64,000 nucleotides of DNA from Candidatus Aenigmatarchaeota archaeon (GTDB lineage: Archaea > Aenigmatarchaeota > Aenigmatarchaeia > CG10238-14 > SCSR01): NCBI GenBank assembly GCA_039000685.1, contig JAWBNW010000001.1:14655-78654 (forward strand), read 5' to 3'. Each line of letters begins with the position of its first letter. Positions within the stretch are counted from its first letter, which is position 1. The position numbers and the translations under genes were made by a program. The notes beneath the pieces are model-generated. The model was not told the DNA's origin. It saw only the letters and a program-made list of their open reading frames with translations, and made no database searches. Shown here in pieces: positions 21,932 through 63,854 of this stretch.

Positions 21932-22006
21932 TGCCCCCGAGGGGATTTGAACCCCCAACCAACGGCTTAGGAAGCCGCTGCTCTATCCAAGTTGAGCTAC
22001 GAGGGC
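21932..22006 (-). tRNA. tRNA-Arg (anticodon CCT)
   Basis: Minus strand reads GCCCTCG-TA-GCTC-AACTTGGATA-GAGC-A-GCGGC-TTCCTAA-GCCGT-TGGTT-GGGGG-TTCAAAT-CCCCT-CGGGGGC-A. A full cloverleaf folds by hand, with U33, anticodon CCU and A37. CCA is not encoded. Confidence 0.8.
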
Positions 22007-50402: not shown

Positions 50403-50900
50403 TTGATTAGACTTAGAACGAAAACATTACCGTTTAATGAATCGTTTGCACGAGAGCTAAAAAGAATTGGTATATCTTCTAAAACTGTATATATTTCAGA
50501 GCGTGGACAATGGAATACATATGTATGTTCCGTCGAGTTTGCTAAATGGTTAAAAAGCCTCTCACTTAAAAATATCGAAGAAATTGTAACGCGAAATAAA
50601 AAGAGTACAATTGCATTCATTAGGGGATTCTACGAAAGTGAAGGTAGCGCAAAAAAGTGGTATAATGTTGTTTATGTTTCAATGGTGAATTCAAAGAGAG
50701 AGTTGATCGAATTGTTAAATAGACTCATAACTACTTTTGGTTTTAAAACAACTATACGTAAGAGATTTGATAAGAGGTATGGTTCTTACATCTACGAACT
50801 TCATATTTTAGGTAGTAGCAAAGAAAAACTTAAATTCCTGGGCTTGATTAACCCATGTATTAAAGCCAACCCAAAGCAATATCCGCTTAAAAATTCTTGA
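50403..50900 (+). CDS. Truncated LAGLIDADG homing-endonuclease-like ORF (free-standing)
   Basis: IAFIRGFYESEGSA (LAGLIDADG-type motif) followed by ...FGFKTTIRKRFDKRYGSYIYELHILGSSKEKLKFLGLI, typical of an HEN domain. The N-terminal part looks like the tail of a first HEN domain. Confidence 0.45.
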   Translation: MIRLRTKTLPFNESFARELKRIGISSKTVYISERGQWNTYVCSVEFAKWLKSLSLKNIEEIVTRNKKSTIAFIRGFYESEGSAKKWYNVVYVSMVNSKRELIELLNRLITTFGFKTTIRKRFDKRYGSYIYELHILGSSKEKLKFLGLINPCIKANPKQYPLKNS

Positions 50901-50912
50901 TATAGATCTTTT

Positions 50913-53900
50913 TTACCTTCTTTGCAAAAGTTGTCTAATTTTTTCAACACACTCAGGATTCATTAAAGTTGTAATATCACCAAGGTCTTCACTTTTCAGT
51001 AATCTTTTTAATACACGTCTGAGAATTTTCCCGCTTCTTGTTTTAGGCAAATCTTGCACATAAACAATCTTTGCAGGCTTTGCTATTGGCCCAATTCTCT
51101 TGGCCACAAGCTCTACCAGCTCAGAAGAAAGCTTTTCACTTGCTTCAAAACCTGCTTTCAAAACAACAAAAGCTATAGGAACTTCACCTTTAATTTCATC
51201 AGGCAATCCAACGACTGCTGACTCAACAACAGCTTCATGTAAGTTCAAAACATCTTCAATTTCAGCATTCGATAAGCGATGACCAGCAACTTTAAGCACA
51301 TCATCTATCCTTCCTGTAATTCTAATCAAACCATTTTCATCCTTCAAAGCTCCGTCTCCTGCGAGGTAAATTTCCTTTCCATACTTGCTGAAGTAAGCTT
51401 CCTCATATTTTTCATGATTTTTGTAAATTCCTCTAAACATACCAGGAGAAAAAGGAGGCAATATAACAAGATTTCCTATTTGGTTCGTTTGACAAGGCTT
51501 TCCTTCTTCATTCAGTATATCAACTTTTACCCCAGGAAAAGGCAAACCAACATGAGCCGGCTTGAAAGGTCCAACTCCTGGCAAAGAAGTTATCAATATG
51601 CCGCCAGTCTCAGTTTGCCACCAAGTGTCAACTATCAAACATCTCTTCTTTCCAATATTCTCAAAATACCATTTCCAAGCACCTTCATCTATTACTTCAC
51701 CAACCGAGCCCAAAAGTCTCAAACTTTTGAACTTATACTTCTTTACAGCTTCTCCACTCAATTTTTCAAACATTCTAATTGCAGTAGGCGCCGTGTAGAA
51801 AATTGTCACCTTATATTTTTCAATTATTTGGGCCCATCTATCTGGGCTTGGAAAATCTAAAGAGCCTTCAAAAATGAGAAAAGTAATACCATTCAACAAA
51901 TTAGCGTAACAATTGTAGGTGTGAGAAGTAATCCAACCTATATCTGCAGTACAATTATGAACTACTAGATTGTTTAAAGTATATGAATTATGCTTAGTTT
52001 TTAAATTCCAAACTAAGCCTTCATAATAAGAAATTTCTTTTTTATTTATCGGAAAGAAAATCAGGTTGGTGGTAATTATTGCCCTCTGCCAACTATAAGT
52101 TTCTTTGGGTTCTTTTAAATTAAATTGAGAATAAAATTTTTGAGCACTTTTACCTGTGATGGCCAATTCATAACTATCTTGGCCACTTTGAATTTTATAC
52201 CCTTCTTGCCTTTTTCTTGTTTTTTCTGCCGGTAAATAAGTAATTGAAGTAACTATACCAAGTTTATTAAGAATCAATTTTATTTGATAAGCTAGTGTAC
52301 GGGAAGCGGTTGTAATTCTTACTCTCCTCCTTCTTCTTAAATCGGTGTTACCATCTCCCAACCAATAACCTTTAATAAATTCCCATAGAAGATCTTTCTC
52401 CAGCGTTAATATCCAATGAGGGAGATGTTTTTCGTAGCTACGATGACCAAAAAGTTTGGAAAAAAATTCAGCCAAGATTACAGAATTTGCACGCGTTTCC
52501 CAACATCCTTTATATTTTAACACTCGAGCTCTTATTCCAAATATTTTTTTAAATAAATTTGCGCTATCTTTGGCAAGCCTCTTTTCTTTCTCTGAAAAGG
52601 TAAGCTGGAGCGTATCTTGAGCAATGCTCCCTTCAGCAATATAATAACCGACAAGTCTTAAAAAGTTGTTATCAATTTTGATCTCATCTTTTATTTTTCC
52701 CTTTTCACCTTTTTTAGGAAGAATGTAGTTATCTTTAGTTTTTCTGTTTTTGACAATGTCCGAGATTTTAATTGTTTTCTTTTTCCATTCCTTAGCTATC
52801 CTTGGAAAAGCAACATAATCCCCAACTTTTAAATCTTTAGCTCTAACCCATTCAGTTATTATAGGCATTCTTTTTTTGAGGACTAAAACTTTATGGTTTG
52901 GAGTCAACTCCACTGGAAGGTTAGTGTAAGAAGTGAATAATCTCACAAGCCCTCCTTTATATTCTCGGACAAAAATCTTTTCAACAGGCATAAATCTTCC
53001 TCGATGGGTAAGAACTTTTTCCCCGATTTTTATATCTTGAATTTCTTTAACTCCAGGATTTGTAACAACTAAACTTCCAGAAGGCACACACCAAAAAACA
53101 TCATCATCATGCCAGTCAAAAATCCATTTTCCAGTCCAATAAGCTTGAACAGTATAACCACCACAGACGTGCATGCAGGGTTTTGGGATACCAGTGCTAC
53201 CACTTGTTGACAAAATAAATAAAACATCTTCTGAATCCATTATTTCAGCTTCACACTCTTCGCTCTCTTTTTCTACAAGCTCGTGCCACCAAAAATCTTG
53301 TCCAGGGTTCCAAGCAATTTGATTCCCAATTCTTTTCACCACAATAATCTTTTTCACACTTGTTTCTTTTACACCCTCATCAGCATTTTCCTTCAAATTT
53401 ATAATTTTCCCCCTTCTGTAGTAGCCGTCAGCTGTTATCAGAAGTTTTGCCTGAGTTATTTGAAGCCTTATTCTTAAAGCCTGAGGAGAGAATGCAGAAA
53501 AAATAACAGTATGAATAGCCCCAATTCTAGCACAAGCAAGCATAGAAATTATGGCTTCTGGAATCATCGGTAAGTAAATTCCAACCACATCTCCCCTCTT
53601 GATCCCAAGCTTTTTCAGAGCATTTGCTGCTTTGTTAACTTGTTTGAAAAGCTCTTCATAAGTTAAAATTCTTGGTTTCTCTTCAACTGGTTCAGGCTCC
53701 CAAATTATAGCCGGTTTGCTCTTGATCTTCTCCCAGTTGATCCTTTTCTCAAAAATGTTTGAAGTTATGTTTATTTTTCCACCCAAAAACCATTTGAAGT
53801 AAGGCGGTGAATGCTCAAAAGCTTTCTCCCACCTCTTGAACCAAAAGAGCTTATCAGCCAAATCTTCCCAAAATTTCACAGGATCTTTATCTGCTTCTTC

Positions 53901-54005
53901 ATAAATTTTCTTGTCGCTAACCCATGCTTTATTCTTCATCTTCCTCGAAGGCCAATAAAGTTCACCTTTCTTTTCAACCCAAGAATTCCCAAAACCAAAA
54001 ATCAT
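50913..54005 (-). CDS. acs: Acetyl-CoA synthetase (AMP-forming) interrupted by a 379-aa intein
   Basis: LSTSGSTGIPKPCMHVCGGY (A3 motif). Extein junction ...DVFW / intein / CTADIGWITSHTY. Extein is 651 aa. Confidence 0.85.
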   Translation of the reverse strand: MIFGFGNSWVEKKGELYWPSRKMKNKAWVSDKKIYEEADKDPVKFWEDLADKLFWFKRWEKAFEHSPPYFKWFLGGKINITSNIFEKRINWEKIKSKPAIIWEPEPVEEKPRILTYEELFKQVNKAANALKKLGIKRGDVVGIYLPMIPEAIISMLACARIGAIHTVIFSAFSPQALRIRLQITQAKLLITADGYYRRGKIINLKENADEGVKETSVKKIIVVKRIGNQIAWNPGQDFWWHELVEKESEECEAEIMDSEDVLFILSTSGSTGIPKPCMHVCGGYTVQAYWTGKWIFDWHDDDVFWCVPSGSLVVTNPGVKEIQDIKIGEKVLTHRGRFMPVEKIFVREYKGGLVRLFTSYTNLPVELTPNHKVLVLKKRMPIITEWVRAKDLKVGDYVAFPRIAKEWKKKTIKISDIVKNRKTKDNYILPKKGEKGKIKDEIKIDNNFLRLVGYYIAEGSIAQDTLQLTFSEKEKRLAKDSANLFKKIFGIRARVLKYKGCWETRANSVILAEFFSKLFGHRSYEKHLPHWILTLEKDLLWEFIKGYWLGDGNTDLRRRRRVRITTASRTLAYQIKLILNKLGIVTSITYLPAEKTRKRQEGYKIQSGQDSYELAITGKSAQKFYSQFNLKEPKETYSWQRAIITTNLIFFPINKKEISYYEGLVWNLKTKHNSYTLNNLVVHNCTADIGWITSHTYNCYANLLNGITFLIFEGSLDFPSPDRWAQIIEKYKVTIFYTAPTAIRMFEKLSGEAVKKYKFKSLRLLGSVGEVIDEGAWKWYFENIGKKRCLIVDTWWQTETGGILITSLPGVGPFKPAHVGLPFPGVKVDILNEEGKPCQTNQIGNLVILPPFSPGMFRGIYKNHEKYEEAYFSKYGKEIYLAGDGALKDENGLIRITGRIDDVLKVAGHRLSNAEIEDVLNLHEAVVESAVVGLPDEIKGEVPIAFVVLKAGFEASEKLSSELVELVAKRIGPIAKPAKIVYVQDLPKTRSGKILRRVLKRLLKSEDLGDITTLMNPECVEKIRQLLQRR
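51954..53090 (-). other. Intein with LAGLIDADG homing endonuclease domain inside acs
   Basis: Starts CVPSGSLVVT and ends LVVHN with +1 Cys. LAGLIDADG motifs LRLVGYYIAEGSI and IKGYWLGDGNTD. Removal restores the conserved YWCTADIGW motif. Confidence 0.8.
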
Positions 54006-56442: not shown

Positions 56443-56517
56443 TTACCCGCCTTTAAACAATTTTGTTCAAGCTCATGTAAATAATTTATTTGTTGTAGAA
56501 CTAAAAGAAACTATTGA

Positions 56518-56533
56518 GCCCCCGTAGCTCAGT
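56518..56533 (+). repeat. 16-nt direct repeat identical to the predicted mature 5' end of the downstream tRNA (GCCCCCGTAGCTCAGT)
   Basis: Exact match to acceptor 5' strand plus D-stem start of the tRNA at 57108, with the 13-nt insert removed. Preceded by an AT-rich promoter-like tract AAATAATTTATT. Confidence 0.45.
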
Positions 56534-56554
56534 CAAGATTTAATTAAAAAACTT

Positions 56555-57112
56555 ATGGAAAAACGTTTAATTTTCGCAAAGGGAAAACAGAGGGAACTTC
56601 TTAAAACAGCTCTTTCAAAATTTAAATTGAATAGAAAAGAATTTGCTAAATCGTTCAACATACCCTTTAAAACTTTTGAAAAATGGTTATATGAAGAAAG
56701 AAGTTTACCTAAGAGTTTTTTTGGCAAGCTGTGCATGAAAGCGCCTGAATTTAAAAACTTCGAAAAGTTTATACAAAATGAAGAAGATCCTAATTGGGGG
56801 CGTAGAAAGGGTGGAAAAATAAATATAAACAGAATTTCGGATTTGAATGTTTATATGAAAAGACTACGTGAAAAATTGCAAATACTTGCTACATTAGGAT
56901 TTAAATTTAGAGTTTCTAGACATAAAGCAAAATGGAGTAAAATTTCAGGTTTATATACGAATCATTTAAGTGAATTTGTTAAATTTTATTCAATAGGAGG
57001 ATTTGTGAAAGGAGTGAAAATATCCAATAAAAGTAAACTTTTTACTGGTATGGAAAAAAATAAATTATTACGCGAAATAATAAGAAACTATCCAAATAGC
57101 CCCCGTAAGTGA
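56555..57112 (+). CDS. Hypothetical protein (185 aa) encoded between the tRNA 5' repeat and the tRNA
   Basis: ORF only. N-terminal region HTH-like (NRKEFAKSFNIPFKTFEKWL). Basic, K/R-rich. Confidence 0.3.
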   Translation: MEKRLIFAKGKQRELLKTALSKFKLNRKEFAKSFNIPFKTFEKWLYEERSLPKSFFGKLCMKAPEFKNFEKFIQNEEDPNWGRRKGGKININRISDLNVYMKRLREKLQILATLGFKFRVSRHKAKWSKISGLYTNHLSEFVKFYSIGGFVKGVKISNKSKLFTGMEKNKLLREIIRNYPNSPRK

Positions 57113-57213
57113 TGGGGAAAGCTCAGTTTGGATAGAGCGGCTATGTAAGAAGCACCGTAAGCCTTCTAAGCAGATGGTCGAGGGTTCGAATCCCTCCGGG
57201 GGCATGCTTATTT
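57108..57213 (+). tRNA. tRNA gene with non-canonical architecture: a 13-nt insertion after nt 9 and an over-long anticodon region with a probable intron. Isotype unresolved.
   Basis: GCCCCCG-TA-[agtgatggggaaa]-GCTC-AGTTTGGATA-GAGC-...-GAGGG-TTCGAAT-CCCTC-CGGGGGC-A. Acceptor, D and T arms are perfect. The 41 nt between D and T arms, against 22-23 expected, do not fold canonically. A T-run follows at 57217-57225. Confidence 0.5.
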
Positions 57214-57262
57214 TTACAATTTCCATCTGGCTTATATAAGCAATCGAAACAAGGCTAAAATC

Positions 57263-57815
57263 ATGCCTGAACTTTATGGTTATGAGAAAGGAATAGAAAG
57301 GGGATTGTTAGCAATTAAACAAATAGATGAAAGGACTTACGAAAAAGTGAAAGAATTTGTGAGGAAGTTGGAAACTAACAATTATTCAAAAAGAAGGATT
57401 TTTAAATACATTTATTTCTTGAAAAATCTCAGAGAGTTGCTTGGAAAAGATTTTAGTGAAGCCGAGAAACAAGATGTTGAAGAATTAGTGATAAAGCTTA
57501 ACAGCAATAACTATTCTGAGAATTCAAAAGCAGATTTCAAGAAGATTTTTAAGTTTTATTACTGCTGGCTTAAGTTTGGAAAGTTTGAAGGGAAGGAAAA
57601 GATTTGAAGAGGTGCTTAGGGATTTATTGATTTACTGTGCTGAAAGAGATAAGGATTTTAAGAAAGTTTTCGTTAAATTCATCAAGGAAAGGAACGCTCA
57701 AGATTTATTCGAAATGGAAAAAACTGAGAAAATACGCGCCATTGATTTTTTGAAAGGATGGAGTTTATGGAAGAAAAAAGAAAAGAGGGAAGGGGTGAAA
57801 AGAAAAAATACCTGA
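57263..57815 (+). pseudogene. Tyrosine-recombinase (integrase) N-terminal core-binding domain fragment, apparently frameshifted (57263..57607 and 57576..57815)
   Basis: ...YSKRRIFKYIYFLKNLRELLGKDFSEAEKQDVEELVIKLNSNNYSENSKADFKKIFKFYYCWL fits a phage-integrase SAM-like N-terminal domain. No catalytic R..HxxR..Y domain follows. Confidence 0.35.
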
Positions 57816-57963
57816 AAAAAACATACTATTTTTGTCAGTGAAAATTGAAGAAAAGCATGTTCTCGCCGTGGCACTTGACTGATGGTTATATAAACATCTG
57901 TCACAAATTTGGCAATTTTCATAAAAATCAAGATTTAAATCTTGATTTAAAAATAATAAAATT

Positions 57964-58338
57964 ATGCAATTTGATGTAAAAATACAACCCCCGTATTTGT
58001 ATCCAAAGAGAAAAAGAAAAGTTAAGTCTAGTATTAGAAAAAAATTAATGTACAAACCTCGCAAATGTGTTTATTGCAGAAAACATGAAGCTATGCATTT
58101 ACATCATGTTAGAGGTTTTGCAAAAGGCGGTAGTGATAAAGAAAGTAATTTAGTTCCTCTTTGCGCTAACTGCCATTACAAAATCCACCATGGTATAATA
58201 ACAACAGAACAATTGAAAAGAAGATTAGGAATTAAGACAAAGCTAAGGAAAAAATCAAAAAGAAAAAGAAGACAAGAATATTATAGGTTTGAATTACCTA
58301 AGTTTAAGCCACCAAAATTGAGTTTAAAACATTGGTGA
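57964..58338 (+). CDS. HNH endonuclease
   Basis: CVYCRKHEAMHLHHVRGFAKGGSDKESNLVPLCANCHYKIHHG is an HNH motif with a Zn-binding Cys pair. Basic K/R-rich tails. Confidence 0.6.
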   Translation: MQFDVKIQPPYLYPKRKRKVKSSIRKKLMYKPRKCVYCRKHEAMHLHHVRGFAKGGSDKESNLVPLCANCHYKIHHGIITTEQLKRRLGIKTKLRKKSKRKRRQEYYRFELPKFKPPKLSLKHW

Positions 58339-58476
58339 TATGTATGCCAGAATTTCTTGCAAGAAGAAAGAAGACTAAGACAAAGAGGCCGGTAAGTTTT
58401 ATGACAAAATACGGCATTGTGTGTTTTAAAGCAAGAAGAAAACCAAAACGAAGATATAGGGTGAGATTTTAATTTT

Positions 58477-58659
58477 TTATTTTTGAGTGTATAAGAACAG
58501 ACCGCCTACAAAAGCCATAATTATAGCCCCAAAAATATACCAACCTATATTTGAAAATTCAGGTGTTATTTGAGAAAAATTAGAAATAATTAAAAATACT
58601 ACATAGATTGCAAGTATACCAACCAATATAAATCTTATAAACTCCGTTATATTTTCCAT
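58477..58659 (-). CDS. Small two-TM membrane protein
   Basis: 60 aa, hydrophobic. Confidence 0.25.
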   Translation of the reverse strand: MENITEFIRFILVGILAIYVVFLIISNFSQITPEFSNIGWYIFGAIIMAFVGGLFLYTQK

Positions 58660-58842
58660 AATTTTTTTAACCCACTTTTATATAAATATAAATTTATCTT
58701 TTATGCTCAATGTTTCTAGATTTAGTCTAAATGTTCTAATCACTGCTGTTAATCTTTTTTATTCTTCTTCATTCTGATAAGTTATGTATTCGATAAATTT
58801 AAAATACCAAACTTTTTAACTTCATTTAAACAATAACTTTTC

Positions 58843-59076
58843 ATGTCAGAAGATATAGAAGAGCAAAAATTTGGGATTTTCATAGTAAGGAGAATAAACA
58901 AGAAGACAAAACAAATGCAAGTTGAGCTGAAGACAAAAGGCGAAAAATTTCCACTAAGCGAGGCAGTGATAATCCTAGAAGGCTGGATTGAAAGGGTGAA
59001 ACAAGAAATAAAGAAGCCTTTCAACTTTGACAAGATGATCTTCAAAAGCTTTGACAAGCCAGAAGAAAAGCCTTGA
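58843..59076 (+). CDS. Small hypothetical protein upstream of the minD-like gene
   Basis: ORF only. Confidence 0.25.
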   Translation: MSEDIEEQKFGIFIVRRINKKTKQMQVELKTKGEKFPLSEAVIILEGWIERVKQEIKKPFNFDKMIFKSFDKPEEKP

Positions 59077-60078: not shown

Positions 60079-61731
60079 TCACAATATAAAGCTCAAATCA
60101 ATCTCAAAAGCTGCTATTGGCATTTCCAACTTCCAATTCTCAAGAACAGAAGGGTGAATTTCGCCAATTATTCCAATAGCCTTGCCTTTAACCAAAATTT
60201 CTGCGGTTCTTCCTTCGATGAAGCTGGGATGCTTGCTCTCTCTTAACTTGTATTTTGCTCCAACCAAAGACATGAAAGCATCCAGAACAGCAACAATATC
60301 ATCATAGCTTACTCTAGAATCAGCAATTGCTACAACAAGCTTCCTCACATCTCTTGTTCTAGTTTCTTGCTTCTCATCAATCAAAACAACATCTCCAACT
60401 TCAAATATTTTTTGTGGATATTCAACATGTTGGTTATTTGCAAAAAATTCCATCAAGCTTGGCAATAGCCAATTCCTGAAAACACTCCAGTTTTCCGAGA
60501 CAATATTCTCTATTTCAGCTACTCTTTCTTCTTTCAAATTCATCTTCTTGAACAAATTCTCTTTGCTTGTTAAAGTGTAAGATAAAATCTCTTGAAAACC
60601 TAAGCTAACCATGAGCTCTTCAACTTTTTCAGTTTTCACTTCAATTTCACTAAGTTTCCCTTCAACTTTCATCTTCAAAGGTTCAGGCTTGATCTTGTTG
60701 TAGCCGTAAGAAATTATCACATCTTCAACCACATCTCTCTGATGCATTATGTCATTGCGATAAGCAGGGTAAAGCAATTCAATTTTTTTGCCTTTCTTCA
60801 AAATCTTGTAGTTTGCTTTCTCAAGCAATTTGCAAATTTCTCCCAAGCTTAAGTCAAGACCAGAAATTTTTCTCACGTAGCTTACATCAACAAAAGTCTT
60901 CTTCGGCTTGAAATCTGGTGTGATTATAGTTTTGCTAGGATAAACAACTTTCACAGAGCAAATTTCTCCACCTCGATCGGCCATAGCCGTTACCATCACA
61001 TTCAAAGCAGGCATCAAAAACTTTAAGTTAAAACCACTGCACTCAATGAAAACATTCTTTGTTTCTTCAGTAACTTTTCCACTATACTCTGAGTTTATGA
61101 TTGGTGGCAAGGACAAGACTTCATTTCTTGCATCGATGAAAATAGGATATTCTTTCTTTCCAGCAAGCAAATGTCCAAACTCTTTTCCTTTTGGATGCTT
61201 TTCCAAAATTTCCCTTGGTGTCAAAGCTTCCTTGAAATCAAGCGGAATGAACTTGATTCCATCAGGCTTTACTGTTGTAAATCTTATTGGTGGCTTAATC
61301 TTATCATAATCATAAACCCCAATTGCAACTTCTTTCCTGTTTCTTCCCAAGCTTCCAGCAATTTTTTCTTGAAGCTGAATCATTTGGGAGAGAAAAGCTG
61401 GAGTAACTTTTAAGTTTTTCACAACAGCACAAACTGTGTAAGGCCTAACTTTTGAAACTTTTTTATCAACTTCAACAACAACTTCTGAGCTCTTGACTTC
61501 ATATTCAGGAAAAATTGGCTCGAAAGCCCTACTTCTTATTTCTCTTGCTATTCCTTCTGAGCTCCATAAGTCTGGCCTGTTTGTGTCTTTTGCTTCAATT
61601 TTCAGATTGTCTCCTTCCACAGCCTCTATTTCACACTTTGCAAAATTTACAAGTTCTTTCAATTCTTCTATTTCAATTTTTCTTCCGATCAATTCACACA
61701 AATCTTGATAAGAAGCTTCTATGGTTGGCAT
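60079..61731 (-). CDS. pheT: Phenylalanyl-tRNA synthetase beta subunit (archaeal)
   Basis: MPTIEASYQDLCELIGRK N-terminus. B3/B4 and B5 domains. 550 aa. Confidence 0.85.
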   Translation of the reverse strand: MPTIEASYQDLCELIGRKIEIEELKELVNFAKCEIEAVEGDNLKIEAKDTNRPDLWSSEGIAREIRSRAFEPIFPEYEVKSSEVVVEVDKKVSKVRPYTVCAVVKNLKVTPAFLSQMIQLQEKIAGSLGRNRKEVAIGVYDYDKIKPPIRFTTVKPDGIKFIPLDFKEALTPREILEKHPKGKEFGHLLAGKKEYPIFIDARNEVLSLPPIINSEYSGKVTEETKNVFIECSGFNLKFLMPALNVMVTAMADRGGEICSVKVVYPSKTIITPDFKPKKTFVDVSYVRKISGLDLSLGEICKLLEKANYKILKKGKKIELLYPAYRNDIMHQRDVVEDVIISYGYNKIKPEPLKMKVEGKLSEIEVKTEKVEELMVSLGFQEILSYTLTSKENLFKKMNLKEERVAEIENIVSENWSVFRNWLLPSLMEFFANNQHVEYPQKIFEVGDVVLIDEKQETRTRDVRKLVVAIADSRVSYDDIVAVLDAFMSLVGAKYKLRESKHPSFIEGRTAEILVKGKAIGIIGEIHPSVLENWKLEMPIAAFEIDLSFIL

Positions 61732-62560
61732 TCAAATCCTCCTCAACCAATTCAACTTTCTTTTTTGAAATATATTTCCCACAATTTGGACAGATATAGC
61801 GTGGATATTTTTTATCTTTATATTTCCAAAATCCACATTTCCAAATTTTTTCATATCCACAATATGGGCAAGGAATTTCAATAGATGAGGCTCGTTTAAA
61901 GAAAGATTCTAACTCAATTATCTTTTGTATTTTATTTTGTTTTTCTTTATGTTTACTCAAAGGCAATAAAATTTTTGCTAATCTTATCACATCCTTTATG
62001 CGCATTAACATGACTCTATATAAATCGAAATTACAAACCCCTATGCCTGTGTAAGTACCTCTTTTTCTTACTAAATAAAAATGTGATTTAAATCCAAGTT
62101 CTTTTAATTTCTTATGAATTTGTTCTAAAATGGTTTTGTCACAAGTTCCTAAACTAAATACTAAGTCCTTATATTTTCCATTATATTTTTTGTGTTTGGT
62201 TATTATCCAACTACCTTCACTATCTACATATCCTGCTAAAAAAGAATAAAATAATTCTTCCTTATTTAATATCCATTCTGGAATGTACGTGGGTTTATTT
62301 ACTAAGAACTCAAAACTACTGTTCAAAGAACAATAAGCTCTAGTAGTTTTTTCTGTTGCACCACCTTTTTTCTCATACCACGAAACCTTTCCATAGCTTG
62401 AGAATACATTTTGAAACATCTCTATTTGTACAGGCTTAGAAGATGTTACCTCCACAATAACACGATTAGAATCTTTCCTCGCATATATATCACCAGCCCT
62501 TAAACCTAAAAGATAAGCTTTTTCTTCATCTGAAAGCAAAGGTATAGACAATTCGTTCAT
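61694..62560 (-). mobile_element. Free-standing LAGLIDADG homing endonuclease with C-terminal C4 zinc ribbon, inserted between pheS and pheT
   Basis: LAGLIDADG motifs LLGLRAGDIYAR and FLAGYVDSEGSW. C-terminal CPYCG...CPNCG ribbon. The 3' end overlaps the pheT start by 38 nt. It lies 10 nt downstream of pheS. Confidence 0.7.
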
Positions 62561-62570
62561 TCACATCTAC

Positions 62571-63854
62571 CTATTCTACAGATTGCTTCAGTCTCAGCCA
62601 CTTTAAATCTTTGGAAAAAAGTTCTCTTATATCGTTTATATTTAGTTTAAACATAGCTAATCTATCGATGCCTAAACCCCAAGCCAACACTGGTACTTTT
62701 ATACCTAAGGGGTAGGTTACCTCTTCTCTGAAAATTCCTGAACCACCAAGTTCAATCCATCCAAGTTGGGGGTGCTTGCAAGATAATTGGGCCGAGCATT
62801 CTGTGAAAGGATAGTAGTCAGGAATGAACTTAACCTCTTCAGCTCCAGCTATTTCTTTTGCAAACATTTTTAAAATTCCCAATAAATTTCTGAAGTTTAC
62901 ATCTTCACCCAAAACAATCCCTTCAACTTGATTAAACTCAACTCCATGAGAAGCATCAATCACATCTGGCCTATAGCACCTAGCTATAGCAAAGTATTTT
63001 CCAGGAATTTTTGGTTTACTTGCTAAAGTTCTTGCAGACAAGCAAGTACCATGTGCTCTTGGCATGAGCTGCATTGCAATTCTTGGATCCCATTTATAAC
63101 CCCAGCCTGTGCTTCCAGCAATTCCTTTTTCATGAGCTTTTTTCACTGCTTGAACAAACTTTTTTGGTAAACTCCCAAGCTTTGGATATTTCATCATGTA
63201 AGTGCTCCACCAATCTCTTGCAGGATGATTTTGTGGCTGATACAAGGCATCGAAATTCCAGAACTGTGTTTCTATTGTAGGGCCTCTCATTTCAATGAAG
63301 CCCATGTCAACAAGCTTCTTTCTGATTTGACTCAAAAATTGTAAGTAAGGTTGCCTTTTTCCATGAGAAATTTTGTCCAATTCAAGCTTCTTTCTAACAG
63401 TCACAACATCAACAGGCTTGAATTTTCGTCCTTTCCACAATTTTGTGACCAAAAGTTCATGGCTTAGAACATCAATTATATTTCCAGCTTTAGCTAAAGC
63501 TTCTTCAACCGCTTTGTAAGTTTCTGTAACTTTTTCAACCAAATTCCTTTCAATCAAAGTTTTCAAAGTTTCTTCATCAACTTCTTTTCCTTTAGCAATT
63601 TTCTTCAGAGCTTCTTCTTCCGGAATTTCTTCAGGCACAGGTTTCATAAGAATTATTTCATCACCTTTTTTCATCACCCATCCTTTTTCCAAAGCCCATT
63701 TCAAAGCTATGGGAAAATTCTTGATTTTTGGTATGAGCTTGCCAAGAGTTGCAGTTTTTTGGGGCATGCTGTCTAGCAGCAAAACAAGATTCTTCTCAGG
63801 CAAGCCTTTCTCCAAGTACTCCTTTCCTTCTTCTGTCAGCTTATAGCTTGACAT
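62571..63854 (-). CDS. pheS: Phenylalanyl-tRNA synthetase alpha subunit
   Basis: Class II motifs (...FRPDYYPFTECSAQ..., GWIELGGSGIF, GLGIDRLAM). Confidence 0.85.
   Translation of the reverse strand: MSSYKLTEEGKEYLEKGLPEKNLVLLLDSMPQKTATLGKLIPKIKNFPIALKWALEKGWVMKKGDEIILMKPVPEEIPEEEALKKIAKGKEVDEETLKTLIERNLVEKVTETYKAVEEALAKAGNIIDVLSHELLVTKLWKGRKFKPVDVVTVRKKLELDKISHGKRQPYLQFLSQIRKKLVDMGFIEMRGPTIETQFWNFDALYQPQNHPARDWWSTYMMKYPKLGSLPKKFVQAVKKAHEKGIAGSTGWGYKWDPRIAMQLMPRAHGTCLSARTLASKPKIPGKYFAIARCYRPDVIDASHGVEFNQVEGIVLGEDVNFRNLLGILKMFAKEIAGAEEVKFIPDYYPFTECSAQLSCKHPQLGWIELGGSGIFREEVTYPLGIKVPVLAWGLGIDRLAMFKLNINDIRELFSKDLKWLRLKQSVE

What the first reader, a model, noticed from the sequence alone, without database searches (positions are those of the whole stretch)
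56518..57213. Anomalous tRNA locus: 16-nt duplicate of the mature 5' end 590 bp upstream, 13-nt insertion after position 9, over-long anticodon region
Acceptor, D and T arms at 57108-57213 fold perfectly only if the 13 nt after U8-A9 are skipped. The segment between D-arm and T-arm is 41 nt rather than 22-23 and does not form a canonical anticodon stem. That implies at least one more intron, possibly non-canonical, or a degenerate gene. An exact copy of the spliced 5' end (GCCCCCGTAGCTCAGT) with its own AT-rich promoter-like sequence sits at 56518, and a 185-aa ORF lies in between. Three models fit. It could be a tRNA with multiple or non-canonical introns, as seen in some archaeal lineages. 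The tRNA 5' end could have been used as an integration site with the duplicate as att scar. Or the true tRNA could be transcribed from the 56518 promoter with a huge ORF-bearing intervening sequence.
Basis: seen in the sequence. Interest (0 to 1): 0.65.

Follow-up and report, generated by a model that had tools for sequence, protein, structure and literature searches.

The report
Homing endonuclease cassette overwrote tRNA gene
An archaeal arginine-tRNA gene interrupted by two tiny introns sits directly behind a decayed "selfish" nuclease gene; the pair replaced the original tRNA gene and left its first 16 bases as a scar, which suggests one way such odd tRNA introns could spread.

Summary
Window 57099-57204 is a tRNA-Arg(UCU) gene with two bulge-helix-bulge (BHB) introns: 13 nt at position 8/9 and 18 nt at 29/30. 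A relative that lacks the second intron carries exactly the predicted exon junction.

The 185-aa ORF (56555-57112) is an in-frame deletion remnant of a ~370-aa LAGLIDADG homing endonuclease with an N-terminal helix-turn-helix. In 13 of 13 loci where its close relatives could be examined, the gene abuts or overlaps the 5' end of a tRNA gene. Wherever the introns could be placed, at least one lies between positions 8 and 23.

Nine syntenic loci from five lineages of Aenigmatarchaeota (IorA 75-97% identical) carry the same promoter followed by an uninterrupted 5' half and only a 37/38 intron. They have no endonuclease gene. Homology to them stops exactly at 56533, so the 16-nt repeat is the stub of the resident tRNA gene.

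Best reading: a free-standing endonuclease gene plus its linked, intron-bearing tRNA allele invaded and overwrote the resident gene. The endonuclease has since decayed. A 2012 Caldiarchaeum case has the same architecture but was attributed to an integrase. Cleavage, intron-based immunity and splicing are inferred, not shown.

The parts
56477..56517 (+). Resident tRNA promoter and leader. It has a TATA-like GTAAATAATTTATTT about 34 nt upstream of the stub, and the leader ends in ..AAGAAACTATTGA. It now probably drives the endonuclease remnant.
   Evidence: Nearly identical sequence directly precedes intact tRNA-Arg(UCU) genes in L022-L026, L028-L032. The promoter role is inferred from position and conservation.
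56518..56533 (+). Stub: the first 16 nt (positions 1-16) of the resident tRNA-Arg(UCU) gene, left behind by the invasion.
   Evidence: Unique in the window. blastn homology to naive alleles (97.8% to L022) ends exactly at 56533. The same stub is present in L001.
56555..57112 (+). Decayed LAGLIDADG homing-endonuclease gene (185 aa). It keeps the N-terminal HTH (~110 aa) and the C-terminal ~75 aa. About 190 aa, including both LAGLIDADG motifs, are deleted in frame; the deletion junction is near 56881/56882.
   Evidence: Alignment A1. Homology to L001 ends at 56881. The family is LAGLIDADG by Pfam, predicted fold and invariant TDG / (D/E)G motifs.
57054..57091 (+). Second, tRNA-proximal promoter-like region inside the 3' end of the ORF: AAAAAATAAATTATTA, then AAGAAACTAT.
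   Evidence: Resembles the resident promoter (11 of 2000 shuffles reach the score). It is conserved upstream of the same tRNA in L027. Function is inferred.
57099..57204 (+). tRNA-Arg(UCU) gene, 106 nt. Exons are 57099-57106, 57120-57142 and 57161-57204 (75 nt once spliced). No CCA is encoded.
   Evidence: ARAGORN calls the spliced form tRNA-Arg(tct). The cloverleaf has the same energy as the minimum-free-energy fold, -32.3 kcal/mol. Exons are 74/75 identical to L027 while the flank is 61% identical. It is 61/75 identical to the window's own tRNA-Arg(CCU).
57107..57119 (+). Intron 1, 13 nt, between positions 8 and 9. BHB: central helix C57101-04/G57114-17, bulges GU|A and AA|A, outer helix G1-C11 and C2-G10, inner A-U pair closing a GUGA loop.
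   Evidence: 4/4 in the central helix. The stub and all naive alleles read GCCCCCGTAGCTCAGT without it. L027 has a 12-nt version.
57143..57160 (+). Intron 2, 18 nt, between positions 29 and 30. BHB: central helix GCGG(57137-40)/CCGU(57155-58), bulges CU|A and AA|G, inner helix UGU/GCA.
   Evidence: 4/4. The L027 ortholog lacks it and reads GGCT|GCCTTCTAAGCAGA.
57206..58842 (.). Extra block 3' of the tRNA. It holds an N-terminal fragment of a tyrosine integrase (57263-57607), an HNH endonuclease ORF (57964-58338) and a small membrane ORF (58477-58659, - strand). It is probably debris of another element. Whether it belongs to the cassette is unresolved.
   Evidence: Pfam and PHROGs hits. The block is absent in L027, where the tRNA abuts the 77-aa ORF. 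No tRNA 3'-end repeat was found.

Best explanation
The locus is the aftermath of an invasion of a tRNA gene by a free-standing homing-endonuclease cassette.

Shown:
(a) 57099-57204 is a tRNA-Arg(UCU) gene with two BHB introns, at 8/9 and 29/30.
(b) 56555-57112 is an inactivated member of a LAGLIDADG endonuclease family whose gene is fused to the 5' side of intron-bearing tRNA genes in several archaeal phyla.
(c) Close relatives carry, at the same site and behind the same promoter, an endonuclease-free tRNA-Arg(UCU) allele with an uninterrupted 5' half.
(d) In the window everything from tRNA position 17 onward has been replaced. Only the 16-nt stub of the resident gene remains.

Inferred:
- The full-length enzyme cuts the intron-less 5' half of the naive tRNA gene. 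If the stub's end at position 16 marks the top-strand cut, the site would be centred near 14/15 and span roughly positions 4-25.
- Repair from a donor copied the endonuclease gene together with its tightly linked tRNA allele.
- That allele escapes cleavage because an intron splits the site. Exon positions 1-26 are identical in both alleles.
- The left junction was made by illegitimate joining, which stranded the stub.
- After fixation the endonuclease decayed: a frameshift in L001, an in-frame deletion here, and a ~230-nt remnant in L027.
- The tRNA is made from its own promoter inside the 3' end of the ORF, or by RNase P from read-through transcripts. It is matured by the archaeal splicing endonuclease and ligase.
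For: tRNA and introns:
- Hand-spliced sequences are called tRNA-Arg(tct), and every non-canonical intron has a 4/4 central helix in register. The background rate is 2.9%.
- L027 gives the exon junction for intron 2.
- Exons are 74/75 identical to L027, against 61% in the flank.

Endonuclease:
- The ORF's only close homolog, P0001, continues into a LAGLIDADG body.
- P0002 passes the Pfam LAGLIDADG_3 threshold.
- The predicted structure (pLDDT 82) matches I-AniI, I-Tsp061I, I-OnuI, I-SceI and I-DmoI.
- The acidic residues of both motifs are invariant in 22 of 22 full-length members.

Linkage:
- In W, L002, L003, L004/5, L006, L007/8, L014 and L016-L021 the ORF's stop lies between about 35 nt inside and about 57 nt upstream of a tRNA start.
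- All resolvable tRNAs carry an intron at 8/9, 9/10, 17/18, 21/22 or 22/23.

Invasion:
- Naive alleles L022-24, L025, L026, L028-31 and L032 share the promoter and have only a 37/38 intron.
- Homology breaks at 56533 and resumes at 58843.
- The window's allele differs from the naive one at 9 exon positions, all 3' of position 26. Six are paired, compensatory changes in the anticodon and T stems.
- Presence and absence are patchy relative to IorA identity: 97% naive, 92% invaded, 87/85/83% naive, 83% invaded remnant, 75% naive.
Against: - No cleavage, splicing or expression data exist, and the endonuclease target is unknown.
- Only one stub-leaving event is documented (window/L001, possibly shared with L027). 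No significant stubs were found upstream of the other family members.
- In the window, L027, L006 and L020 the whole D arm (positions 9/10 to at least 29) is uninterrupted. Immunity therefore requires the recognition site to reach position 8 or lower.
- Positions 1-16 are identical in both alleles, so the stub cannot show which allele body was resident.
- Non-canonical introns may be common in these lineages regardless. A second multi-intron tRNA with no adjacent endonuclease gene lies in L014.
- An integrase fragment lies next to the tRNA.
- More distant family members are not next to a tRNA.
Confidence: 0.68

Rival explanations
1. Integrase-mediated site-specific integration, as proposed for the Caldiarchaeum tRNA-Thr locus. 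A plasmid or virus with an attP that contains the tRNA 5' part (with an intron) recombined with the tRNA gene. This duplicated the 16-nt core. Most of the element was later lost.
For: - tRNA genes are classic att sites, and the architecture matches Sugahara et al. 2012.
- An N-terminal fragment of a tyrosine integrase lies 59 nt downstream of the tRNA.
- The region 3' of this tRNA differs in every relative, as expected of an integration hot spot.
Against: - The only gene between the repeats is a LAGLIDADG remnant, and the integrase fragment lies outside them.
- Simple recombination would leave the resident tRNA body 3' of the core. Instead the body is another allele with a different intron pattern.
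- No integrase accompanies the endonuclease-tRNA pair in the longer loci L002 and L018-L021.
- No repeat of the tRNA 3' end was found.
Confidence: 0.12
2. The stub is a working exon. Transcripts from the 56480s promoter are spliced at a long-range BHB that joins 56518-56525 to 57120. This removes a 594-nt intron (56526-57119) that contains the whole ORF, as in the LAGLIDADG-bearing introns of archaeal rRNA genes.
For: - The stub repeats the 5' splice-site sequence.
- With its leader AUUGA it forms a 7-bp outer helix plus the 4/4 central helix and correct 3-nt bulges. The two-strand energy is -18.0 kcal/mol, against -13.3 for the local 5' exon.
- The ORF's stop (57110-57112) lies just inside this putative intron.
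Against: - The downstream gene has its own 5' exon and a promoter-like box.
- L027 has lost the stub's CCCC and the ORF, yet keeps the tRNA with 74/75 identical exons.
- Stub positions 9-16 match the tRNA because of ancestry, not need.
- The leader is ancestral and also present in naive alleles.
- There is almost no inner helix.
- At best this is an extra pathway. It does not explain the origin of the locus.
Confidence: 0.15
3. Degenerate tRNA pseudogene with random insertions; the repeat and the ORF are incidental.
For: Standard tRNA finders and Rfam do not detect the gene. There is a G27-A43 mismatch.
Against: - The cloverleaf is perfect after removing two inserts, and each insert has an in-register BHB.
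- Exons are conserved against the flank.
- The same G27-A43 is present in L002 and in the naive alleles.
- The gene replaced the only tRNA-Arg(UCU) gene at this locus.
Confidence: 0.03
4. The LAGLIDADG-HTH protein is a domesticated factor for its neighbouring tRNA, either a maturase-like helper for BHB splicing or a WhiA-like regulator. It would not be a mobile nuclease, and the linkage would reflect function.
For: - Tight, conserved linkage on the same strand.
- LAGLIDADG maturases and WhiA appear among the structural matches.
- The window's copy keeps its reading frame.
Against: - The catalytic acidic residues are invariant, whereas WhiA lacks them (own knowledge).
- The gene is dispensable and decays (L001, window, L027), and close relatives manage without it.
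- Its patchy distribution is typical of selfish elements.
Confidence: 0.07

Closest known systems
Caldiarchaeum subterraneum tRNA-Thr(GGU) locus heterogeneity (Sugahara et al. 2012, PLoS One 7:e32504; PMC3293823)
   Same: Strains of one population carry either a naive tRNA allele or a disrupted one. The disrupted form has a 5' tRNA fragment behind the original promoter, then an inserted segment with an ORF immediately upstream of, and on the same strand as, a tRNA allele that has an extra non-canonical intron (24/25). The authors concluded that the intron arrived with a mobile element and may block re-invasion.
   Different: - There the fragment covers positions 1-27 and the insertion is 1.87 kb, including a repeated 545-bp element.
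- The ORF was only guessed to be a DNA-binding protein or recombinase.
- The tRNA 3' part stayed resident, which fits site-specific insertion by a pNOB8-type integrase.
- Here the ORF is demonstrably LAGLIDADG, the whole tRNA body is a different allele, and the ORF-tRNA pairing recurs across phyla.
- I could not test whether their ORF 'b' belongs to this family.
Multi-intron tRNA genes with BHB introns at non-canonical positions (Thermoproteales, Nanoarchaeota, ARMAN; reviewed in PMC4090602)
   Same: Short introns at non-canonical sites, each defined by a bulge-helix-bulge motif, with several per gene and missed by standard finders. Positions 22/23 and 29/30 are on the published list.
   Different: The lineage is Aenigmatarchaeota (DPANN). 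An 8/9 or 9/10 intron is not on the list quoted in that review. Here the introns are physically tied to an endonuclease gene.
Free-standing homing endonucleases of T-even phages, especially SegB in the T4 tRNA gene region (Brok-Volchanskaya et al. 2008; cited in PMC13096335)
   Same: The endonuclease gene lies outside any intron or intein and next to tRNA genes. It is thought to cut the homologous region of endonuclease-free genomes and be inherited by co-conversion with flanking DNA, so-called intron-less homing.
   Different: SegB is a GIY-YIG enzyme in a bacteriophage. Resistance of the donor there does not involve tRNA introns. Here the enzyme is LAGLIDADG+HTH in cellular archaeal genomes.
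LAGLIDADG endonucleases encoded inside archaeal rRNA BHB introns (I-DmoI, I-Tsp061I, I-PorI)
   Same: Same enzyme fold, archaeal host, stable-RNA target gene, and association with BHB introns.
   Different: Those ORFs sit inside the intron they mobilise. Here the ORF sits in the 5' flank or promoter region of the gene, the introns are 12-35 nt and ORF-less, and the protein has an extra N-terminal HTH.
SSV-type and pNOB8-type integrative elements at archaeal tRNA genes
   Same: A tRNA gene is the target, a partial tRNA copy is left as a scar, and an integrase fragment is nearby.
   Different: Those elements duplicate the 3' part, carry an integrase inside the element, and keep the resident remainder of the tRNA. 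None of this holds here.

Membership tests
Archaeal tRNA gene with BHB introns | A canonical cloverleaf with a standard anticodon loop once the inserts are removed | tested here: met
   ARAGORN calls the 75-nt spliced form tRNA-Arg(tct). The cloverleaf energy equals the minimum free energy, -32.3 kcal/mol.
Archaeal tRNA gene with BHB introns | Each exon-intron pair forms two 3-nt bulges separated by a 4-bp helix, with cleavage after the second bulge nucleotide | tested here: met
   Intron 1: CCCC/GGGG with bulges GU|A and AA|A. Intron 2: GCGG/CCGU with bulges CU|A and AA|G. Both are 4/4; the background rate is 2.9%. The outer helix of intron 2 is absent, so that motif is relaxed.
Archaeal tRNA gene with BHB introns | Exon junctions confirmed by intron-less homologs | tested here: met
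   L027 lacks intron 2 and reads GGCT|GCC. The stub and nine naive loci read ..CCGTAGCTC.. without intron 1.
Archaeal tRNA gene with BHB introns | The mature spliced RNA exists, and the genome encodes a splicing endonuclease able to cut non-canonical sites | not testable with these tools
   No RNA data are available. The enzyme gene was not looked for and may lie outside the window.
LAGLIDADG homing endonuclease (free-standing) | Two-domain LAGLIDADG fold with a conserved acidic residue in each motif | tested here: met
   Met for the family: Pfam, fold matches, and TDG and (D/E)G in 22 of 22 members. Not met for the window's own copy, in which both motifs are deleted.
LAGLIDADG homing endonuclease (free-standing) | Presence/absence polymorphism at an otherwise syntenic site, with signs of the invasion-decay cycle | tested here: met
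   Naive loci L022-26 and L028-32, against invaded W, L001 and L027. Decay: a frameshift in L001, a deletion in the window and a remnant with stop codons in L027.
LAGLIDADG homing endonuclease (free-standing) | Site-specific cleavage of the endonuclease-free allele near the insertion point | not testable with these tools
   Only indirect evidence: the stub ends at tRNA position 16.
LAGLIDADG homing endonuclease (free-standing) | The carrier allele is resistant because the target is disrupted | tested here: inconclusive
   Exon positions 1-26 are identical in both alleles. Every linked tRNA that could be resolved has an intron between 8/9 and 22/23, and no naive allele does. The target itself is unknown.
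Integrase-type integrative element at a tRNA gene | An integrase gene inside the segment bounded by the tRNA repeats | tested here: not met
   Only the LAGLIDADG remnant lies between 56533 and 57099. The integrase fragment is at 57263-57607, outside the repeats.
Integrase-type integrative element at a tRNA gene | The tRNA part distal to the crossover keeps the resident sequence | tested here: not met
   There are 9 exon differences, all 3' of position 26, and a different intron set compared with L022, whose flank is 97.8% identical. Caveat: the resident body in this exact lineage is inferred from relatives.
ORF-bearing BHB intron (rRNA-intron type) | A BHB at the boundaries of the ORF-containing segment, and no separate 5' exon downstream | tested here: not met
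   0/4 pairs at the 16/17 register. A BHB is possible only at 8/9, using the shared 3' site. The downstream gene has its own 5' exon, so the second criterion fails.

The most novel reading that the evidence does not exclude
A family of tRNA-gene-specific LAGLIDADG endonucleases travels as a two-part selfish cassette: the endonuclease gene plus a linked tRNA allele. Non-canonical BHB introns in that allele split the enzyme's recognition site and make it immune. Each homing event then replaces an intron-less tRNA gene with an intron-bearing one. This would be a concrete mechanism for the unexplained gain and spread of non-canonical tRNA introns, and for stray tRNA fragments, in Archaea. In this locus the stub may additionally allow the endonuclease mRNA to be excised as a 594-nt tRNA intron.
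Probability: 0.3. Interest if true: 0.85.

Novelty: new variant of a known kind. Interest (0 to 1): 0.68.

Why it matters
How archaeal tRNA genes acquire introns at non-canonical positions, and how tRNA fragments become scattered, is an acknowledged open question. [quoted passage not shown] The main ideas are protection against mobile elements (Randau and Soll) and delivery by an integrating element (Sugahara 2012).

This locus, with its relatives, offers a before, during and after series within one genus-level group. It also names a candidate agent: a LAGLIDADG endonuclease family that is consistently linked to tRNA alleles carrying introns in the 5' half.

The resulting hypothesis can be tested directly with a cleavage assay on naive and intron-bearing tRNA gene sequences. 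If it holds, it links homing-endonuclease biology to tRNA intron evolution.

There is also a practical point. tRNA-Arg(UCU) is missed or mis-typed by standard tools in these genomes. ARAGORN's intron mode calls it tRNA-Pyl or tRNA-Gln, which could lead to false claims of missing tRNAs or of stop-codon suppressors.

Tried and rejected
- **Group I intron or another known RNA in the 56534-57098 segment.** Rfam at a permissive E-value found nothing relevant.
- **tRNA-Pyl(CUA) with a single 33-nt intron** (ARAGORN -i). Rejected: it ignores the 8/9 insert, and ARAGORN gives the same mis-call for naive alleles.
- **BHB for a giant intron at the D-loop junction (16/17).** 0/4 pairs. Other registers score 2/4 or less, except 8/9 and a self-complementary AGCU register with no flanking helices.
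- **Stubs upstream of the other family members.** None was significant under two scoring schemes. My by-eye candidates in L002 and L006 did not survive shuffling. L020's GGGCCCGTG is weak (15 of 300 shuffles reached its score under the first scheme).
- **A repeat of the tRNA 3' end that would mark an att site for the integrase fragment.** None found.
- **Viral carriers.** Neither the endonuclease family nor this tRNA allele was found in IMG/VR.
- **Membership of the window's other LAGLIDADG ORFs in this family.** No.
- **Sequence match of the family to solved structures.** None significant; only the fold search worked.
- **Whether the Caldiarchaeum ORF 'b' belongs to the family.** Its sequence is not in the held supplements, and names of ten ~270-aa representatives were uninformative.
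- **Resolving the L003 tRNA automatically with up to three strict BHB introns.** No solution. It stays unresolved apart from a 22/23 intron seen by eye.
- **First attempt at a locus scan with the seven-sequence alignment.** It failed for lack of conserved columns.
Full report
**1. Observation**

The 16-mer GCCCCCGTAGCTCAGT occurs once in the window, at 56518-56533. Its features are the acceptor GCCCCCG/CGGGGGC, D arm GCTC-AGTTTGGATA-GAGC, T arm GAGGG-TTCGAAT-CCCTC and discriminator A.

Default ARAGORN and Rfam find only a tRNA-Arg(CCU) at 21932-22006. A permissive Rfam scan of the region finds no tRNA and no group I intron. ARAGORN's intron mode calls 57099-57204 'tRNA-Pyl(cta)' with one 33-nt intron, which does not account for the insert after position 8. 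The 185-aa ORF is at 56555-57112. It overlaps the tRNA's first 14 nt and stops inside the first insert.

**2. The tRNA**

Removing 57107-57119 (13 nt, between positions 8 and 9) and 57143-57160 (18 nt, between 29 and 30) gives a 75-nt sequence. ARAGORN calls it tRNA-Arg(tct). Its cloverleaf has the same energy as the minimum-free-energy fold.

Both inserts fit the archaeal bulge-helix-bulge (BHB) rule exactly: a 4-bp helix flanked by 3-nt bulges, with cleavage after the second bulge base.
- Intron 1: CCCC/GGGG, bulges GU|A and AA|A.
- Intron 2: GCGG/CCGU, bulges CU|A and AA|G.

Random registers reach 4/4 pairs only 2.9% of the time.

The relative L027 carries the same allele with a 12-nt version of intron 1 and no intron 2. 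It reads GGCT|GCCTTCTAAGCAGA, exactly the predicted junction. Exons are 74/75 identical between the window and L027, while the adjacent flank is 61% identical. The spliced product is also 61/75 identical to the window's own intron-less tRNA-Arg(CCU). The gene therefore looks functional, not degenerate.

**3. The ORF**

The ORF has no meaningful Pfam hit and a single close homolog among 5.8 billion proteins: P0001, from a Candidatus Aenigmatarchaeota genome. P0001's contig (L001) is syntenic with the window and carries the same stub. There the ORF continues into a longer body.

P0001 has five homologs of 250-376 aa. An alignment shows that the window's ORF is an in-frame internal deletion. It keeps the N-terminal helix-turn-helix region and the C-terminal ~75 aa, and lacks both LAGLIDADG motifs.

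The family is LAGLIDADG on three counts:
- P0002 passes the Pfam LAGLIDADG_3 threshold.
- A confident model (pLDDT 82) matches I-AniI, the bI3 maturase, I-Tsp061I, I-OnuI, I-SceI and I-DmoI.
- The acidic residues of both motifs (TDG and D/E-G) are invariant in 22 full-length members.

An exhaustive profile search finds 719 cluster representatives, about 25-30 of them with the full two-part architecture.

**4. Linkage to tRNA genes**

[quoted passage not shown] These are W, L002, L003, L004/5, L006, L007/8 and L016-L021, plus the Woesearchaeota locus L014. Standard tools miss all of these tRNAs, apart from one dubious overlapping ARAGORN call in L019.

Hand splicing, checked by ARAGORN and the BHB test for ten sequences, gives the following. 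The entries for L006, L014 and L019-L021 were read directly from the sequences.

| Locus | tRNA | Intron positions |
|---|---|---|
| Window | Arg(UCU) | 8/9, 29/30 |
| L027 | Arg(UCU) | 8/9 |
| L002 | Arg(UCU) | 22/23 |
| L004, L016, L017 | Arg(UCU) | 17/18, 37/38 |
| L006 | Arg(CCU) | 9/10, 37/38 |
| L018-L021 | Lys(CUU) | 9/10, plus 22/23 and/or 37/38 |
| L014 | tentatively Gln(CUG) | 21/22, 37/38 |

L003 is only partly resolved. More distant relatives, which share the LAGLIDADG body only and have other N-termini, are not next to a tRNA.

**5. The empty site**

Homologs of the neighbouring IorA protein gave a graded series of syntenic loci.
- L022-24 (97% IorA identity), L025 (87%), L026 (85%), L032 (83%) and L028-31 (75%) all have the same promoter, directly followed by an intact tRNA-Arg(UCU). 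That gene has only a canonical 37/38 intron and no endonuclease gene.
- blastn homology of the window to these loci runs to 56533 exactly, which is tRNA position 16, and resumes at 58843.
- The 16-mer is therefore the stub of the resident gene.

The window's tRNA differs from the naive allele at 9 exon positions, all 3' of position 26. Six are paired, compensatory changes in the anticodon and T stems. The intron pattern differs too.

L027 (83%) shows a later stage. It has a decayed stub, a ~230-nt remnant of the endonuclease's 3' end with stop codons, the second promoter-like box and the same tRNA allele. L001 (92%) has a longer but frameshifted endonuclease gene.

This is the invasion, fixation and decay series expected of a homing-endonuclease gene. 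Its patchy distribution relative to host similarity suggests lateral spread or repeated loss.

**6. Mechanism (inferred)**

The enzyme probably cuts the intron-less 5' half of the tRNA gene. LAGLIDADG enzymes leave 4-nt 3' overhangs (established knowledge). If the stub's end at position 16 marks the top-strand cut, the site would be centred near 14/15 and span about positions 4-25.

Every linked tRNA has an intron inside that span, and no naive allele does. Exon positions 1-26 are identical in the two alleles. If the target lies there, only the introns can protect the carrier.

Repair from a donor would copy the endonuclease gene and its tightly linked allele. The left end, lacking homology, would join illegitimately and strand the stub.

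A/T-rich boxes about 25-35 nt upstream of the tRNA, inside the last codons of the ORF, suggest that the tRNA keeps its own promoter. The resident promoter plus stub would then drive the endonuclease transcript.

None of these steps has been tested. The weak points are:
- only one documented stub event;
- an intact D arm in several carrier alleles;
- an unknown background frequency of such introns.

**7. Rivals**

- **Integrase-mediated integration.** This was the explanation offered for the near-identical Caldiarchaeum tRNA-Thr architecture. It fits poorly here. The integrase fragment (57263-57607) lies outside the repeat-bounded segment. The tRNA body is not the resident one. No integrase accompanies the pair in the longer loci.
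- **A giant intron starting in the D loop.** Excluded: 0/4 pairs at that register.
- **A long-range BHB at 8/9.** This remains possible. The stub's first 8 nt and its leader pair with the 3' half of intron 1, giving a 7-bp outer helix, a 4/4 central helix, and -18.0 against -13.3 kcal/mol for the local exon. It would excise 594 nt containing the whole ORF. L027 shows the stub is dispensable, so this is at most a side pathway.
- **A pseudogene, or a domesticated maturase or regulator.** Both are unlikely.

**8. Comparison with known systems and novelty**

- Multi-intron BHB tRNA genes are well known, and 22/23 and 29/30 are listed positions.
- A stub plus an ORF-bearing insertion plus a tRNA with an extra intron has been described once (PMC3293823).
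- The idea that introns protect tRNA genes from mobile elements dates from 2008.
- Free-standing endonucleases that spread with flanking DNA, including SegB in the T4 tRNA region, are known.

Five full-text searches of the held library found no report of the following:
- a LAGLIDADG+HTH family dedicated to archaeal tRNA genes;
- its constant pairing with tRNA alleles carrying introns in the 5' half, across DPANN and other archaea;
- a population series showing allele replacement.

I classify the finding as a new variant of a known kind.

**9. Verdict**

The finding is genuine and more interesting than a mere odd tRNA. Its descriptive core is solid: a multi-intron tRNA, a decayed LAGLIDADG gene, and a stub of the resident gene. 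The mechanistic core, homing with intron-based immunity, is a well-motivated inference that awaits a simple biochemical test.

Noticed in passing
window 50913-54005 (-), insert about 51876-53087: The acetyl-CoA synthetase gene carries a LAGLIDADG-containing intein. It is absent from the ~650-aa orthologs in L001, L022 and L025-L032. This is another presence/absence polymorphism among close relatives.
   Followed up: partly
window 61694-62560 (-): A free-standing LAGLIDADG_3 ORF (288 aa, with a C-terminal zinc ribbon) is wedged between pheT (60079-61731) and pheS (62571-63854). The two genes abut or overlap in L026-L028. The ORF does not belong to the tRNA-linked family.
   Followed up: partly
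window 50403-50900 (+): A third LAGLIDADG_3 ORF (165 aa) lies next to the synthetase gene and is unrelated to the tRNA-linked family. This genome segment is unusually rich in homing-type elements.
   Followed up: partly
window 57206-58842: A 1.6-kb block 3' of the tRNA holds an integrase N-terminal fragment, a 79-aa ORF, an HNH endonuclease ORF and a small membrane ORF. It is absent in L027. The space between this tRNA and the 77-aa ORF differs in every relative (about 50 nt to 2.3 kb), so it is an integration hot spot. No att repeat was found.
   Followed up: partly
window 57205-57225 and L032 (3' flank of its tRNA): The first ~20 nt after the window's tRNA (tgcttatttttacaatttcc) resemble the 3' flank of the naive tRNA in L032 (tgcttatttcttcaatttttt). 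The right-hand recombination junction may therefore lie at the tRNA's 3' end.
   Followed up: no
L018-L021 and L010 (just upstream of the endonuclease ORF); L020 (also 3' of the tRNA): A conserved motif, TTTCGGTGACC(C/T)CTCTCCCC preceded by a TATA-like box, occurs upstream of the endonuclease gene. In L020 it occurs again downstream of the tRNA, so it flanks the pair there. It is unexplained.
   Followed up: no
L018-L021 and L027, immediately 5' of the tRNA: An extra partial copy of the acceptor 5' strand sits directly upstream of the tRNA: GGGCCC|GGGCCCGTG.. and GCCCCCGTAAATATCGA|GCCCCCGTAAGT... These may be further repair scars or alternative pairing partners.
   Followed up: no
L022-L032 and window 57099-57204: ARAGORN's intron mode types tRNA-Arg(UCU) genes, both naive and invaded, as tRNA-Pyl(cta) or tRNA-Gln(ctg). 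This is an annotation trap for these genomes.
   Followed up: yes
L022/L025/L026 compared with L004/L016/L017, the 37/38 introns: The canonical intron of the naive Aenigmatarchaeota allele shares a 3' segment (..TGATTSAARGATGAARGAA) with the 37/38 intron of the endonuclease-linked tRNA-Arg(UCU) genes of an unrelated metagenomic lineage. This points to an old, conserved intron.
   Followed up: no
window 57927-57948 compared with 56533-56545 (and L001): CAAGATTTAA(A)T, the sequence that follows the stub, recurs upstream of the HNH ORF. It is a 12-nt exact match to the L001 version. It could be chance in AT-rich DNA or a shared promoter element.
   Followed up: no
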